A DNA stretch of 64,000 nt, taken from assembly GCF_057098645.1 (NCBI RefSeq), contig NZ_CM169472.1; one strand, written 5' to 3'. The position numbers are program-made. Of the stretch, positions 23,501 to 29,500 are shown piece by piece (positions within the stretch are counted from its first letter, which is position 1; each line of letters begins with the position of its first letter).

Positions 23501-26500
23501 TTCCTGTGTGGTACGCCGTCTGCGTTTCTCCGGCCCTAAGACATCAATCATCTGTTCTCCAATGACTAGTCTAAAAACTAGTATTAAGACTATCACTTAT
23601 TTAAGTGATACTGGTTGTCTGGAGATTCAGGGGGCCAGTCTAGCGCGTCACGAAATGTCATGCACATGTCACGACGAGTCACGACAGATAAAGATACAGA
23701 TAAAGATACAGATCAAGAAGATCAAAACACTATGGTCCATGGCGTAAAAAACGCCACGAACCAGGCAGGGGATGTTCAGACCGTCAATCCTGGTCAGCCA
23801 GCAGGCACGACACCGGAAGCCGATTCAGCGTATGCGCTGAAAGCCGATTCGGGCGCTGTGCAGCAGGTGATGACCGCAAGGCCGAAGCAATCACACCAAC
23901 TGCAGCAGCCTGAAGCCGATTCCGCCATTCAGCGGGAAGCCGATCGGGTAGTCCCGGAAAACACCGGGCTGTCTGTGGGACGAGTGGATTATCCGGATGT
24001 GTTCGAACAGGTCTGGCGGGAGTACCCGTTGCGTGCCGGAGCAAACCCGAAGAAATCCGCATTCAGTGCCTGGAAGGCCAGATTGCGCGAGGGGGTGCCA
24101 CCAGAGACCATGCTGGATGGTGTGAGGCGTTACGCGAGATACCTGGCGGCGACCGGGAAAGCGGGAACGGAATTTGTTCAGCGAGCGACGACGTTTTTTG
24201 GGCCGGACCGGAATTTTGAAAACCCCTGGTTGCTCCCGGTAAGCGGCACGAACAACCAGCGTTGTGTGAATCATATTTCTGAACCGGATACCGAAATTCC
24301 GCCGGGATTCAGGGGGTGATGTGGCATGAAAAACATTGCGGCAGCCGGGGTTCTTGAACGTATTCGCAGACTTGCACCACCGGCGTCGGTTCCACCGTAC
24401 CGGACGGTGGAGGAGTGGCGGGAATGGCAACTTGCTGAAGGACGAAAACGCAGCGAGGAGATTAACCGCCAGAATCACCAGTTGCGGGTGGAAAAAATCC
24501 TGAATCGTTCGGGCATCCAGCCTCTGCACAGCAAATGCTCGTTTGCGAATTATCAGGTGCAGAACGACGGGCAAAAATACGCGCTGAGCCAGGCCAAATC
24601 CATAGCTGACGAACTGATGACCGGGTGCACGAATTTTGTGTTCAGCGGTAAAACCGGCACCGGGAAAAATCACCTTGCAGCGGCGATGGGTAACCGGCTG
24701 ATGGCGAAGGGGCGCAGCGTGATTATCGTCACCGTGTCTGATGTCATGAGCGTGTTGCATGACAGCTACGACAACGGCAAATCCGGGGAAAAATTTTTAC
24801 AGGAGCTTTGCAGTGTTGATTTGCTGGTCCTGGATGAAATAGGCGTTCAGCGGGAGACGAAAAACGAGCAGGTGGTATTACACCAGATAATTGATCGCCG
24901 GACAGCATCACTGTGCAGTGTCGGGATGTTAACAAACCTGAATCATGCCGCAATGAGTACGCTTCTTGGTGAGAGGATTATGGACCGCATGACCATGAAC
25001 GGTGGTCGATGGGTGACGTTTAACTGGGATAGCTGGCGTCCAAATGTCAGCAATATGAGGGTTGTGAAGTAATTTTGTCCGGAGGAAATTTTAATGGAAA
25101 CCGTATCTGACGCACTGAAAGCACTGAAAAAAGCCTCTTCACATGTGGTGGCAGCTCGCCTTGGAATCAGTCGTGAAGAGGCTGTCAACGAGCTGTGGGA
25201 ACTCAAAAGAAATGGCGTCGTTGATAAAACTGGTCACACCTGGTTTCTGGCTGGCGAAGGTGAATCCCGGGTAACCGAAGAGCGGCCAGTAAAATCTGAA
25301 GCACAGGATATGCTGACCGGGGAGGTCGAACAAAAAGTTACCGCAGACATGATGATTGAGTTTATCGGTCAGGATGGGGCTAAAACGTGTGAGGAACTGG
25401 CGGGTAAGTTCGGTGTCAGTACTCGCAAGGTTGCTTCCACGCTGGCGGTGGTAACCGCAACGGGGCGGCTGGCACGCGTTAATCAGAACGGTAAATTTCG
25501 TTACTGCATGCCGGGCGATAATTTACCAGCAGAGCCGAAAGCCGCGCTGGTAACGGAAAGTGATGGTAAGGCCTTTCCTCAGCCAGCAGGTGCTGCGTTA
25601 CCAGTCCGGGAAGCCGCAACACAGGAAGAAATTAAAACAGAAACTGTGGCGGACATTGTGCAGCCGTTGCCATCGTTTACCGAAACGCAAGCAGATGAGC
25701 TGATTTTTCCGTCCCTTCGCAGGGCAAACCTGGCGCTGCGCAGGGCGAAAAGTGATGTTCAGAAGTGGGAGCGAGTCTGCGCCGCGCTGCGGGAGCTGAA
25801 CAAGCACCGGGATATTGTTCGACAGATTACTGATTCTTCCCGCCGTGTTGTATCGGAAAAGTGATTGCCGGAGGCGCTTATGGCAAAAGTATTTACACAG
25901 GAAGAGCGGGAAAAAATTAAAGGGCAGGTTGTTGAGCTAGTACGCCGGAGTGGGCGCGAGACGTTACGGCAACTGGAAGCCAAGACAGGTGCGACAAGAT
26001 ATCTGATGAGCGTTCTTGCCAGAGAGCTGGTTGCCAGTGGCGATGTATACAACTCTGGTTACGGGTTATTCCCATCTGAACAGGCTCGTAAGGACTGGCA
26101 AAACGCCCGCAAAAAACTATCGAGGGCAAAACTGAAGAAACCGGTTGTGGTTGATCCTGACCTTATCTGGTCATTACCAGACGGAGAAATACGCCGCTAT
26201 GACAGGCAATTGAACATAATTTGTAGTGAGTGCCGTAACAGTGAAGTGATGCAGCGAGTTTTGATATTTTACACAGGAGTAATGATGGAATAGTGAAAAT
26301 AACATGAAACCTTTGGATTCTGGTGTTTCAGTGGATGGGAAAAGAGCAGATACATAGAAAATGAATAGCAATAATTCACAGTCTGGATGTTGTTTGTATG
26401 CTTATAAAATGATCCTAGTATGCATTGCCGGAGTTGAATCAGCTCCAATGAAGAAACTGAGAGGAGTATTTAGAAGATAGCTAAATGGATGTAATTATTA

Positions 26501-29500
26501 GTATCTAAAAAATAGTATTTTTGAAATGGGTCTAAGAACACAACAATGTACAAATGAGAAGTTATCTTTTAATATGTTCAAAGACCCATTAGGATTGATA
26601 TCAGTTATGTTAGCTAGATTGATAAAGTGATTACATATTTTCTGTTATATGCTGAAATGAATAATGCTATTCCAGAGTGCAGCAGAGAAAGTCTCCTGAT
26701 GATTGAGCTCTGGAAATTGTACAATAGAAAAATTACTGTATTTTTCTGTCAAAATATTTCTCAAAACAGATTCCGCTTTGATGGCTTCAGGATATAAAGA
26801 TGCGGAGTAATCAAGGCTAAGATTTCCGTTAAGCAAGCATATACTTTTAGTGTGCTTTGATTCTGATATATCATCTTTAATTATCTTGATGATTCTTTCA
26901 TTCTGCCATAGAAGTGATGGTGCAGATATATAATAATAGTTAAAGCATGAATTATTTTTTAAGCAATCAAGCACAAAAATAGCACCTAGCGAGTGCCCCC
27001 ATATACCGATTCTGGAACTGTTCGGAGCAATAGTACTAACCCATGGCATGATCTGAGTTAGTAATAATTCTCGGAAAGACTGGCTTCCTCCACCAGTAAA
27101 GTAGATCCATGCTGGTTTAGAGTTATCAACAATAGCATTTTCACCATCAGGAGTATAATCGTAAGCACGGCGATGAATGCTAAGGTTATTCCAAGATTCA
27201 TAACCAAGTGTAACTAACACTGGTGGATTGGGTAGTGCATCAATAACAGGCAGAATATCAGAAATGTAATTGTTGGCACTATTCCCATCAAGTATATAAA
27301 GAGTTGCATTATTTTTTTTAATGTTTTTTGGAGTAAAAATACATATTTTATATTTGGTGTCATGGTTAATTGAGTTAAATATGCGTGTTTGACAATGAAT
27401 GTCCATATGTTTAGTCATGCGTTCTCCCCATGAGCATTAAAGGATGCTTAAGATATGCTATGTCACTGATAAAAAATTTGTTGTGTGTGTTTAGTTATTT
27501 TATCTACCTCCATTATGATTTAAGACTGATATATGTTATCAGCAAAGGTACATCGTTATTATTTTACCTGTCAATACATTTGATATTGATTATCGTTTAC
27601 ATCGCTTGCTTAGGAAATTGAAGGCAGGTAACTATCATGTCAATGAACTAACCCACAGTCTAACGTACTTCTTTCCCCAATCACCAACAACCAAATTCCT
27701 GTTATCACCACTGGGATTTTGGCGCAACTTCATGGTGCAGAGGTAAATAGCATCAAGCAAAATCTCTTTTTCCGTTGTTGTCCTTATGGGACGTCTGTCT
27801 TTCTGACCGATTTCATATTGGCGAGGTAATGGGAAGTTAAGTAGAATAGCTGCGGGTGCTTGAGGCTATCTGCCTCGGGCATGAACACCAACGGCAGATA
27901 GAGAAAAGCCCCAGTTAACATTACGCGTCCTGCAAGACGCTTAACATTAATCTGAGGCTCAATCTATGAACGGCAAATCTAGGTTAGCCTCTTACGTGCC
28001 GAAAGGCAAGGAGAAGCAGGCTATGAAGCAGCAAAAGGCGATGTTAATCGCCCTGATCGTCATCTGTTTAACCGTCATAGTGACGGCACTGGTAACGAGG
28101 AAAGACCTCTGCGAGGTACGAATCCGAACCGGCCAGACGGAGGTCGCTGTCTTCACAGCTTACGAACCTGAGGAGTAAGAGACCAGGCGGGGGAGAAATC
28201 CCTCGCCACCTCTGATGAATCAGGCATCCTCAACGCACCCGCACTTAACCCGCTTCGGCGGGTTTTGTTTTTTCCTGGCATTCTGGTTTACAATTCGCAC
28301 GCCAGCCTGAACAACTGGCACCTGCTGCGCCAGCAGAGACAACCGATGGCGCACGATACCAAATTATACAATTCTGATGATTCTGCCGTCTTTGCCAGCA
28401 GGCGCGGACGGTGTTTTCACGCATTCAAATCTGACTGGTACCAGCATCCCCCATGCACTGAAGAACAGGCCGAATGGCTCATTCAGTGTTACCGCAGGCG
28501 CGGATGCGAGGTTAAAAAAGCCCTTAGCCTCGACTACCGTCACTGGATAATCTCCGTCAGGCTCCCTTACTCCGAACGGCCACCGCGTCCGTCCCGCACA
28601 TTCCAGCAACGGATCTGGAGGTAATGTGCGGGTATTACTTCGACCTGTTCTGGTACCGGAACTCGGTCTGGTTATCGTTAAGCCAGGCCGTGAATCCATG
28701 CGGGTATTTCATGGCGGCAGGGTGCTGGTGGAGTCTGAACCGAAAAGCATGCGTAATCTGCCGTCCGGGGTCGTTCCTGCCGTTCGCCAGCCGCTGGCGG
28801 AAGATAAATCATTACTGCCATTTTTCAGCAATGAGCGTGTGATTCGTGCTGCTGGTGGCGCTGGTGCACTGTCTGACTGGTTATTACGTCACGTTAAATC
28901 CTGCCAGTGGCCTCATGGTGATTACCACCACAGCGAAACCGTCATACATCGTTACGGTACCGGCGCGATGGTGTTGTGCTGGCACTGCGACAACCAGCTG
29001 CGCGACCAGACATCCGAATCACTTGAGCAACTTGCTCAACAAAACCTGTCAGCATGGATGATTGACGTCATCCGCCACGCAATGAATGGCACACAGGAAC
29101 GGGAATTATCGCTGGCTGAATTATCCTGGTGGGCAGTCTGCAATCAGGTGGTGGACGCATTACCTGAGGCAGTATCGCGTCGTTCTCTGGGATTACCGGC
29201 GGAAAAAATCCGCTCCGTATACCGTGAAAGCGACATCATACCGGGAGAACAGACCGCCACCAGCATACTGAAGCAGCGCACAAAAAATATTGCGCTACCG
29301 CCTCACACCCACCAGCAACAGAACCCACCACAGGAAAAGACGGTGGTCAGCATTGCCGTTGATCCGGAGTCTCCGGAATCCTTCATGAAACGACCTAAAC
29401 GTCGCCGCTGGGTAAATGAGAAATACACACGCTGGGTAAAGACACAGCCGTGTGCGTGTTGTGGTAAGCCAGCGGACGATCCTCATCATCTGATTGGTCA

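What the first reader, a model, noticed from the sequence alone, without database searches (positions are those of the whole stretch)
26294..27960. AT-rich island with an intracellular alpha/beta-hydrolase and cysteine-rich small ORFs between the replication and nin-like regions
The region is far more AT-rich than the surrounding phage DNA, so it looks separately acquired. It encodes a 257-aa esterase-family hydrolase (GHSLGA) with no signal peptide on the strand opposite to the phage genes. Upstream are unannotated small ORFs such as MNSNNSQSGCCLYAYKMILVCIAGVESAPMKKLRGVFRR (26362-26478). This hotspot often holds defence or fitness cargo, and I could not assign a function.
Basis: partly seen in the sequence, partly recalled or inferred. 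Interest (0 to 1): 0.6.

Follow-up and report, generated by a model that had tools for sequence, protein, structure and literature searches.

The report
Leaderless siderophore-esterase gene on EHEC prophage
The AT-rich island is a one-gene cargo cassette in a lambda-like prophage of cattle- and human-associated Shiga-toxin E. coli, and its gene encodes an uncharacterised, probably cytoplasmic and iron-regulated relative of the enterobactin/salmochelin esterase IroE; the neighbouring "cysteine-rich small ORFs" are not real genes.

Summary
The island and the 257-aa hydrolase are real. About 1.5 kb (26272-27775) has GC 0.30-0.37, against 0.50-0.57 in the flanks. It sits between the Ren-like DUF977 gene and the hok/sok module of an Sp4/CP-933M-type prophage. 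The gene is ECs1077 in Sakai.

Databases call the protein only "alpha/beta hydrolase". Its sole close structural and sequence relatives are siderophore esterases. IroE is the best match (E = 5e-26, TM 0.8), followed by PfeE, BesA and fungal EstA/EstB. The IroE Ser-His dyad and the conserved Asp and Arg are kept. The ~49-residue export leader found in all its closest relatives is missing.

The gene is under purifying selection (dN/dS 0.16-0.25). It has a strong Shine-Dalgarno sequence, a conserved promoter block with two Fur-box-like sites, and a downstream hairpin. It always occupies the same slot, antisense to the phage genes.

Best reading: an iron-responsive cytoplasmic trilactone (siderophore) esterase carried as a lysogenic-conversion moron.

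The five small ORFs tested are all broken in other alleles.

The slot is a true cargo hotspot. Phage mEp460 carries the defence gene PD-T7-1 there, so a defence role remains a minority rival.

Interest is moderate: a new member or variant of a known enzyme family in a new context.

The parts
26272..27775 (.). AT-rich cargo island (about 1.5 kb) in the variable slot between the Ren-like DUF977 gene and the hok/sok/mok module
   Evidence: GC is 0.30-0.37 against 0.50-0.57 in the flanks. Homology to island-less phages ends at 26256-26271 and resumes at 27776-27832. Other phages hold different cargo in the same slot.
26645..27418 (-). 257-aa leaderless IroE-family serine esterase (ECs1077 / WP_000160654.1 / phrog_8493). 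Nucleophile Ser143 in GHSLG, His240, Asp44 (LDGN), Arg84 (RAYDYTP).
   Evidence: PDB phmmer gives IroE 2gzr at E = 5e-26 over the full length, then BesA, PfeE and fungal EstA/B. AF2 pLDDT is 90.5, and the top 30 Foldseek hits are all siderophore hydrolases. The key residues are invariant. dN/dS is 0.16-0.25.
27424..27429 (-). Shine-Dalgarno sequence GGGGAG, 5 nt upstream of the ATG at 27418
   Evidence: Read directly from the sequence. Conserved in all alleles.
27512..27539 (-). Sigma-70 promoter-like site ATAACA-16 nt-CATAAT, inside the most conserved non-coding block
   Evidence: Consensus scan. The block is invariant across five distinct upstream alleles. No transcription start has been shown.
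27526..27542 (.). Perfect palindrome CTGATAACATATATCAG. It matches the 7-1-7 Fur motif TGATAATNATTATCA at 11 of 14 positions and overlaps the predicted -35 and spacer.
   Evidence: It is 100% conserved in all 20 intact loci that one search scored, including alleles with dS of 0.13-0.32.
27582..27600 (-). Fur-box-like 19-mer GTAAACGATAATCAATATC (15 of 19 matches to GATAATGATAATCATTATC; the embedded 7-1-7 motif matches 12 of 14)
   Evidence: Reached by only 0.3% of 2000 dinucleotide-preserving shuffles of the 342-bp upstream region. Largely conserved, with one variable position.
26525..26590 (-). Hairpin about 55 nt downstream of the hydrolase stop codon, followed by a U-rich tract. Candidate terminator of the cassette.
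   Evidence: Inverted repeat with 16-nt arms, 88% complementary. The fold gives z = -2.4 against shuffles. Function is inferred.
26361..26480 (+). Judged spurious.
   Evidence: The start codon is lost and in-frame stops appear in the 90% and 92% alleles. It lies in the least conserved stretch of the island.
25865..26293 (+). Left flank: DUF977 / 'LygF' / Ren-like exclusion protein gene (not part of the island)
   Evidence: phrog_142, E = 5e-45. RefSeq annotation.
27854..28178 (+). Right flank: sok antisense RNA region (27854-28028) and the mok/hok toxin ORF (27966-28178)
   Evidence: Rfam RF01794, 107 bits. phrog_251 MokW-like. hokD annotation.

Best explanation
The island is a self-contained, one-gene lysogenic-conversion cassette (a 'moron'). 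It encodes a cytoplasmic serine esterase of the IroE/BesA/PfeE siderophore-esterase family.

Proposed mechanism: under iron limitation Fur repression is relieved at a promoter that overlaps two Fur-box-like sites, and the lysogen makes the enzyme. With no export leader it stays in the cytoplasm. There, Ser143 activated by His240 (the IroE-type dyad, with the conserved Asp44 and Arg84 nearby) hydrolyses the ester backbone of an imported or newly made catecholate trilactone siderophore. Candidates are enterobactin or a xenosiderophore such as a salmochelin- or bacillibactin-type molecule. This either releases iron (a Fes/IroD/BesA-like role) or linearises the siderophore (an IroE-like role), and so gives the STEC/EHEC host an iron-acquisition benefit.

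Shown here: family membership by sequence and fold; retention of the catalytic residues; absence of a leader; purifying selection; a fixed slot and orientation; a conserved upstream block with Fur-consensus matches.

Inferred: the substrate, cytoplasmic activity, Fur control, and any benefit to the host.
For: Family:
- All 11 PDB sequence hits are siderophore esterases, led by IroE at E = 5e-26 over residues 8-253.
- The AF2 model is confident (pLDDT 90.5, pTM 0.91).
- The top 30 Foldseek PDB hits are all siderophore hydrolases (TM 0.73-0.81). The E-value then drops about four orders of magnitude to generic esterases.

Active site:
- IroE Ser189 and His287 (the dyad, per PMC10515146 and PMC7034887) align to Ser143 and His240. 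Asp90 and Arg130 align to Asp44 and Arg84.
- Asp44 and Arg84 are invariant, and Ser143 and His240 are conserved in at least 90%, of the 94 relatives.

A real, maintained gene:
- dN/dS is 0.16-0.25 at dS 0.13-0.32.
- 20 of 21 loci are intact.
- The SD sequence GGGGAG lies 5 nt before the ATG.

Leaderless:
- The protein lacks the ~49 N-terminal residues present in IroE and in the Pantoea/Duffyella relatives.
- About 85% of 132 distant relatives carry a hydrophobic leader.
- Leaderless cytoplasmic family members such as BesA do exist (the localisation of BesA is from memory).

Iron regulation:
- A 15/19 Fur box and a second 7-1-7 palindrome lie upstream. The 19-mer match was reached by 0.3% of 2000 dinucleotide-preserving shuffles and the two-site pattern by about 0.6%.
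- Both lie inside the best-conserved non-coding block.
- Three of the four closest stand-alone relatives also have strong Fur boxes upstream: 15/19, 15/19 and 13/14, with 0/500, 0/500 and about 1.6% of shuffles reaching them.

Moron anatomy:
- The gene is antisense to the phage early operon, AT-rich, has its own promoter-like site and hairpin, and is absent from related phages.
Against: - No siderophore synthesis, receptor or transport gene is linked to it. The closest relatives (31-33% identity) are themselves stand-alone genes of unknown substrate.
- Identity to any characterised enzyme is only about 28-30%, so substrate specificity cannot be transferred.
- Pfam's Esterase model matches only at E = 0.013, and NCBIfam has no match.
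- E. coli already has the cytoplasmic esterase Fes (PMC8001512), so the added value is unclear.
- Fur-like matches are sequence-only and lie in AT-rich DNA. The only other TGATA-N5-TATCA palindrome in the window is a perfect Fur consensus inside the cos packaging region, which shows that such palindromes can have other roles.
- The stronger Fur-like box lies about 45 bp upstream of the predicted -35 rather than over it.
- The slot is used for an anti-phage defence gene in another phage.
- No expression or phenotype data were found.
Confidence: 0.55

Rival explanations
1. It is an esterase of the IroE fold that has been recruited to a non-siderophore substrate, such as another cyclic ester or depsipeptide, an acylated metabolite or a xenobiotic. 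Its benefit to the lysogen would then be unrelated to iron.
For: It is an orphan lineage. Among 1.84 billion cluster representatives nothing lies between the E. coli alleles (about 89%) and 33% identity. There is no siderophore gene linkage here or in the closest relatives. Pfam and NCBIfam do not classify it.
Against: Every structurally or biochemically characterised relative detected acts on a siderophore ester. Fur-box-like sequences occur upstream of this gene and of three of the four closest stand-alone relatives.
Confidence: 0.2
2. It is a single-gene anti-phage defence or superinfection-exclusion factor. The hydrolase would protect the lysogen against other phages, for example by destroying an ester-linked molecule the invader needs, or indirectly by altering iron status and thereby the Fur-controlled siderophore receptors that phages use.
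For: The same slot and orientation hold the defence gene PD-T7-1 in phage mEp460 (E = 4e-157). The slot lies between a Ren-like exclusion gene and a hok/sok module. A single antisense, AT-rich gene is typical of prophage defence cargo.
Against: There is no match to any of the 5027 PADLOC models. No known defence system uses this fold. No partner gene (sensor or effector) is present. The fold and upstream sites point to iron metabolism.
Confidence: 0.13
3. The enzyme acts outside the cell after prophage-induced lysis. It would be a leaderless 'public good', released in the way phage lysis is thought to release other prophage products such as Shiga toxin (from memory). It would degrade siderophores in the gut lumen, either to sabotage competitors or to generate linear catecholates that kin cells can use.
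For: It is leaderless yet most similar to periplasmic enzymes. The same prophage carries a SASA-family sialate esterase gene.
Against: The gene is antisense to the lytic transcripts and has its own conserved promoter region. That predicts expression in the lysogen rather than on induction.
Confidence: 0.07
4. It is an inactive remnant: a periplasmic IroE-like gene that lost its 5' end on capture and now has no function.
For: It lacks the leader and the conserved 'PLGPNIADxGS' segment of all its closest relatives. A few copies are frameshifted or truncated (L033; H150).
Against: dN/dS is 0.16-0.25 with an intact frame across alleles that differ at 57-73 nucleotide positions. All catalytic residues are kept. 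There is a strong SD sequence. The model is confident from residue 8 onward without the missing segment. No leader remnant is detectable upstream.
Confidence: 0.04

Closest known systems
IroE (periplasmic enterobactin/salmochelin trilactone hydrolase of the iroBCDEN cluster; PDB 2GZR/2GZS)
   Same: It is the best sequence and fold match (E = 5e-26; TM 0.78-0.81). The GxSxG nucleophile, the catalytic His and the conserved LDGN Asp and RAYDYTP Arg are the same. The core is a single alpha/beta-hydrolase domain without the Fes/IroD N-terminal lid domain.
   Different: Identity is only 28-30%. It lacks the ~49-residue N-terminal leader/anchor, so it should not reach the periplasm where IroE works (PMC8264917). 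It is not in an iro cluster. It is prophage-borne and very AT-rich.
BesA (bacillibactin esterase of Bacillus; PDB 2QM0)
   Same: Same fold family (E = 9e-13, TM about 0.77). BesA also begins within about 9 residues of the aligned start of the fold, so it too is leaderless. Its cytoplasmic iron-release role (from memory) is what I propose for this protein.
   Different: It is more distant in sequence than IroE. BesA is chromosomal and belongs to the bacillibactin uptake regulon rather than a phage.
PfeE (Pseudomonas) and Cee (Campylobacter), periplasmic ferric-enterobactin esterases
   Same: Same fold and nucleophile. They show that a stand-alone IroE-type esterase is sufficient to use enterobactin made by others (PMC8001512).
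   Different: Both are periplasmic and linked to a TonB-dependent receptor gene. This protein has no leader and no linked receptor.
Fes / IroD (cytoplasmic enterobactin / salmochelin esterases)
   Same: They share the proposed compartment and reaction (PMC8001512, PMC8264917) and a distantly related catalytic domain (Foldseek E about 1e-9).
   Different: Fes and IroD are about 380-410 aa, with an extra N-terminal domain and a Ser-His-Glu triad (PMC10515146). This protein is a 257-aa single domain of the IroE type.
Lambdoid phage morons / lysogenic-conversion cassettes (from memory, e.g. lambda bor and lom; here the PD-T7-1 insert of mEp460)
   Same: It is an AT-rich single-gene insert with its own promoter-like and terminator-like signals. 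It lies between conserved phage genes, is antisense to the early operon, and the slot holds different cargo in related phages.
   Different: The cargo type is new. No sequenced phage in the 50,697-record collection encodes a credible homologue, and the viral structure library has only generic alpha/beta hydrolases (TM 0.57 or lower).

Membership tests
IroE/BesA/PfeE-type siderophore esterases | Single-domain alpha/beta-hydrolase fold of the IroE type | tested here: met
   AF2 pLDDT is 90.5. Foldseek gives 2gzs at E = 2.7e-19 with TM 0.78/0.81. The top 30 hits are all siderophore hydrolases.
IroE/BesA/PfeE-type siderophore esterases | Nucleophile Ser in GxSxG and catalytic His (IroE Ser189/His287) | tested here: met
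   Ser143 (GHSLG) and His240 align to Ser189 and His287. They are kept in all 20 intact alleles that one search scored and in at least 90% of 94 relatives. The dyad is described in PMC10515146 and PMC7034887.
IroE/BesA/PfeE-type siderophore esterases | Conserved LDGN Asp and RxYDYTP Arg (IroE Asp90/Arg130; their functional importance is recalled from Larsen et al. 2006 and was not re-read) | tested here: met
   Asp44 and Arg84 are invariant in the 94-sequence alignment.
IroE/BesA/PfeE-type siderophore esterases | Hydrolysis of a siderophore ester backbone (enterobactin, salmochelin, bacillibactin, fusarinine) | not testable with these tools
   This needs an enzyme assay. Identity to characterised members is 30% or less.
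IroE proper (orthologue of the iro-cluster enzyme) | N-terminal leader/anchor giving periplasmic location | tested here: not met
   The ~49 N-terminal residues are absent. The maximum N-terminal hydrophobicity is 0.0, against a median of 2.44 in relatives with a leader. No longer reading frame is possible.
IroE proper (orthologue of the iro-cluster enzyme) | Location in an iroBCDEN-type or other siderophore gene cluster | tested here: not met
   It is always a lone gene between the DUF977 gene and hok/sok in lambdoid prophages.
Fur regulon member | Fur box overlapping the promoter; iron- and Fur-dependent transcription | tested here: inconclusive
   There is a 15/19 consensus match (p about 0.003) and a conserved 7-1-7 palindrome over the predicted -35. 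Relatives also have Fur boxes. No binding or expression data exist, and a perfect Fur-like palindrome also occurs in the cos region.
Known anti-phage defence systems (PADLOC) | Match to a defence-protein model | tested here: not met
   0 of 5027 models match at E = 0.1 or better.
Known anti-phage defence systems (PADLOC) | Location in a recognised defence/cargo hotspot of prophages | tested here: met
   PD-T7-1 occupies the same slot and orientation in mEp460. Other phages carry variable cargo there.
Phage moron (lysogenic-conversion cassette) | Discrete insert absent from related phages, with deviant composition and its own expression signals | tested here: met
   The expression signals are predicted only.

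The most novel reading that the evidence does not exclude
The most novel reading not excluded is that this leaderless siderophore-esterase homologue is a single-gene anti-phage (or inter-prophage competition) factor. It sits in the same hotspot slot as PD-T7-1 and would act through hydrolysis of a siderophore-like ester or through iron and Fur signalling. That would be a first link between the siderophore-esterase fold and phage defence. A milder but still new reading is a phage-delivered iron-piracy enzyme that contributes to STEC/EHEC fitness in cattle or in the inflamed gut.
Probability: 0.13. Interest if true: 0.7.

Novelty: new variant of a known kind. Interest (0 to 1): 0.4.

Why it matters
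Iron acquisition is central to gut colonisation by enteric pathogens, and prophages define much of what separates EHEC from commensal E. coli. This gene is at least 99% identical in 457 of 5426 complete E. coli genomes. In every sampled row where a serotype is named, the carriers are the classic STEC/EHEC serogroups (O157:H7, O145:H28, O26, O103, O111, O121). Yet every database labels it only "alpha/beta hydrolase" or "hypothetical protein", and I found no paper that mentions it.

If it is an iron-regulated cytoplasmic siderophore esterase, it would be a rare example of a phage-borne auxiliary gene for siderophore use. It would also be a cheap, directly testable candidate fitness factor, through fes complementation, Fur binding and enzyme assays.

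If instead it turns out to be a defence gene, it would add a new enzymatic class to prophage-encoded immunity.

Either way the result is incremental rather than field-changing: the fold, the chemistry and the moron architecture are all familiar.

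Tried and rejected
- Small ORFs as genes: rejected. All five are broken in other alleles.
- Pfam, NCBIfam and PADLOC classification of the hydrolase: uninformative (E = 0.013, none, none).
- Looking for the island in sequenced phages: none carry it. A protein-level search found only mislabelled bacterial contigs or a short fragment.
- Looking for intermediate relatives or a donor lineage: none between 89% and 33% identity in 1.84 billion representatives.
- Context of the closest relatives as a functional clue: they are stand-alone genes next to unrelated functions, so context gave nothing. 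Their upstream Fur boxes did.
- Remnant of a lost signal peptide upstream of the ATG: no collinear or significant match.
- Flanking direct or inverted repeats that would indicate a mobile element: none convincing.
- The palindrome as an operator of the prophage's own repressor: rejected, since there is no other copy in the window. The second TGATA-N5-TATCA site turned out to lie in the cos region. I therefore do not use 'only two sites, both Fur' as an argument.
- Neighbour-joining placement of the protein: unstable long branch, so only distances are reported.
- Literature on ECs1077, its accessions, or prophage siderophore esterases: nothing found.
- The key biochemical paper (Lin et al. 2005, PMC2536649) could not be opened.

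Full report
**1. What is in the sequence**

GC content drops from 0.50-0.57 to 0.30-0.37 between about 26200 and 27800. On the minus strand, 26645..27418 is a 257-aa ORF containing GIWGHSLGA. It is the longest possible frame.

The surrounding genes are those of a lambdoid prophage. Upstream lie a DnaC-like ATPase gene, a DUF1627 gene and a DUF977 ('LygF', Ren-like, phrog_142) gene. Downstream lie sok RNA (Rfam, 107 bits), mok/hok, DUF968, RusA and an antiterminator Q. In O157:H7 Sakai this is prophage Sp4, next to yccA. The gene is ECs1077, annotated 'hypothetical protein'; newer RefSeq annotation says 'alpha/beta hydrolase'.

**2. The island is discrete cargo in a variable slot**

Phages that share the DUF977 gene and the hok module lose homology at 26256-26271 and regain it at 27776-27832. 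This defines an insert of about 1.5 kb.

In those phages the slot holds quite different genes. In mEp460 it holds a single antisense 449-aa gene that matches the PADLOC defence protein PD-T7-1 at E = 4e-157.

No record in the 50,697-record phage collection carries this island. At protein level only mislabelled bacterial contigs or a short fragment match.

**3. Distribution**

The island occurs in 470 of 5426 complete E. coli genomes, at 99% identity or more in 457 of them. In 464 it matches at least 80% of a query that runs from the end of the DUF977 gene to the hok-proximal flank.

A sample taken across the whole ranking consists of cattle and human isolates. Every serotype named in it is a classic STEC/EHEC serogroup: O157:H7, O145:H28, O26, O103:H2, O111:H11 or O121. 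The 90-92.5% alleles are in pig and wildebeest isolates.

In 21 loci from assemblies and IMG/VR the gene is always in the same orientation next to a DUF977 gene that is 69-100% identical. Mok/hok is on the other side in all 18 loci whose DNA reaches that far. Twenty of the 21 copies are intact. One backbone has a different replication module, lambda-P/DnaT type. So the cassette travels among lambdoid backbones but keeps its slot.

**4. What the protein is**

Profile libraries are unhelpful. Pfam Esterase matches at E = 0.013, NCBIfam and PADLOC give nothing, and PHROGs has it as phrog_8493 'unknown function'.

A direct comparison with solved structures is clear. IroE (2gzr) matches at E = 5e-26 over residues 8-253. 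All ten other hits are siderophore esterases: BesA, PfeE, the Shewanella 'IroE-like serine hydrolase', and fungal EstA/EstB.

An AlphaFold model built on 94 relatives is confident (pLDDT 90.5, pTM 0.91). Its top 30 Foldseek matches in the PDB are all siderophore hydrolases (TM 0.73-0.81). The E-value then drops about four orders of magnitude to S-formylglutathione hydrolases and other esterases. The viral structure library has only generic alpha/beta hydrolases (TM 0.57 or lower).

IroE's catalytic dyad Ser189/His287 (PMC10515146, PMC7034887) aligns with Ser143/His240. Asp90 in LDGN and Arg130 in RAYDYTP align with Asp44 and Arg84. Asp44 and Arg84 are invariant, and Ser143 and His240 nearly so, across the 94 sequences. 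All four are kept in every intact allele.

**5. How it differs from IroE**

IroE, the Pantoea and Duffyella relatives and the other best hits carry about 49 extra N-terminal residues: a hydrophobic leader plus a conserved 'PLGPNIADxGS' stretch. The prophage protein starts right at the first beta-strand of the fold, and its N-terminus is not hydrophobic.

About 85% of 132 distant relatives have a leader. About 15% do not, in line with the BesA-type cytoplasmic enzymes.

The start is genuine. GGGGAG lies 5 nt before the ATG, and both are conserved in every allele. No remnant of a leader is detectable upstream.

IroE, PfeE and Cee act in the periplasm, whereas Fes and IroD act in the cytoplasm (PMC8001512, PMC8264917). 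This enzyme should therefore act in the cytoplasm. That is an inference.

**6. It is an orphan lineage under selection**

Among 1.84 billion cluster representatives nothing lies between the E. coli alleles (about 89%) and 33% identity.

Between alleles, dS is 0.13-0.32 and dN/dS is 0.16-0.25, and the frame is intact. That excludes a decaying remnant.

**7. Expression signals**

The best-conserved non-coding stretch lies about 85-185 nt upstream of the ATG. It contains:
- a promoter-like site, ATAACA-16-CATAAT;
- a perfect palindrome, CTGATAACATATATCAG, over the predicted -35, matching the 7-1-7 Fur motif at 11 of 14 positions;
- further upstream, a 19-mer matching the Fur consensus at 15 of 19 positions.

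Only 0.3% of dinucleotide-preserving shuffles of this AT-rich region reach 15/19, and about 0.6% give two sites that good.

Comparative support: three of the four closest stand-alone relatives also have strong Fur boxes upstream. Two Pantoea genes score 15/19 with 0 of 500 shuffles reaching that, and a third relative scores 13/14 on the 7-1-7 motif. The operon-internal iroE has none, as expected.

Cautions:
- The only other TGATA-N5-TATCA palindrome in the window is a perfect Fur consensus that lies inside the cos region, about 30 bp before a lambda-type cosN. Such palindromes need not be Fur sites.
- Nothing here shows binding or transcription.

A hairpin followed by a U-rich tract lies about 55 nt after the stop codon (z = -2.4). 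Together these features give the anatomy of a classic moron.

**8. The small ORFs**

The 39-aa 'cysteine-rich' ORF (26361-26480) loses its ATG and gains in-frame stops in the 90% and 92% alleles. The other four small ORFs in the island are likewise disrupted in at least one allele. Their region is the least conserved part of the island. They are chance ORFs in AT-rich DNA.

**9. Interpretation**

The best-supported model (confidence about 0.55) is an iron-responsive, cytoplasmic IroE-family esterase. It would hydrolyse a catecholate trilactone siderophore and benefit the lysogen's iron economy.

Rivals:
- same fold, other substrate (0.20);
- anti-phage defence, favoured by the slot but by nothing in the protein (0.13);
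- action after lysis-mediated release (0.07);
- dead remnant (0.04).

No literature on this gene, its accessions or any prophage-borne siderophore esterase was found.

**10. Verdict**

The function can be narrowed from 'unknown hydrolase' to 'leaderless IroE-type siderophore esterase, probably Fur-controlled'. It is a new variant of a known enzyme family in an unusual vehicle. Interest is moderate (0.4), and it is easy to test.

Noticed in passing
window 42712-42726 (with cos at about 42764-42810): A perfect Fur-consensus palindrome, TGATAATAATTATCA (14/14; 16/19 to the 19-mer), lies about 30 bp upstream of a lambda-type cosN/cosB sequence, just before the small-terminase gene. It is probably part of the packaging signal (the cosQ side). 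Whether Fur binds there is unknown.
   Followed up: partly
L010:1323-2672 (phage mEp460_ev081, LR597641.1 33822-35171): The 449-aa 'hypothetical protein' in the same DUF977-to-hok slot, also antisense, is the PADLOC defence protein PD-T7-1 (E = 4e-157). It is unannotated as such in the phage record.
   Followed up: partly
window about 30200-32400: A second AT-rich island (GC 0.33-0.40) lies just downstream of the Q antiterminator. By comparison with RefSeq annotation it holds a CPBP/CAAX-type intramembrane protease gene and small regulator-like genes. It is another cargo region.
   Followed up: no
window 27854-28178 and 28187-28268: There is a complete hok/sok/mok type I toxin-antitoxin module (sok, 107 bits). 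Immediately after it is a sub-threshold isrK-like sRNA match (27 bits against a gathering score of 50) ending in a strong terminator (28247-28264).
   Followed up: no
L001:17456-19768 (E. coli O157:H7 PV15-279): In this strain an ISEc8 (IS66-family) element has inserted into the DUF977 gene right next to the island and split it. The window's copy is uninterrupted.
   Followed up: no
NZ_CP124741.1 (EDL933 'plasmid', 286,775 bp), 30056-30829: The only 'plasmid' copy of the hydrolase gene is on a 287-kb record labelled as an EDL933 plasmid. It probably represents a misassigned chromosomal or prophage segment rather than a real plasmid.
   Followed up: no
window 41936-42250 and 42332-42556: A PerC/Pch-like 104-aa ORF (by comparison with pchA of Sakai Sp4) and a 74-aa YlcI/YnfO-family ORF lie just upstream of cos.
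   Followed up: partly
L033:4001-4770 (IMGVR_UViG_2695420643_000015): One copy of the hydrolase gene has a frameshift after codon 35. It is the only broken copy among the 21 loci examined.
   Followed up: partly
window 27680-27763: RefSeq annotates a C-terminally truncated 'hypothetical protein' pseudogene here, between the hydrolase promoter and sok. This stretch is replaced or rearranged in the 90% allele (47-66% identity with indels), so it may be a relic of earlier cargo.
   Followed up: no
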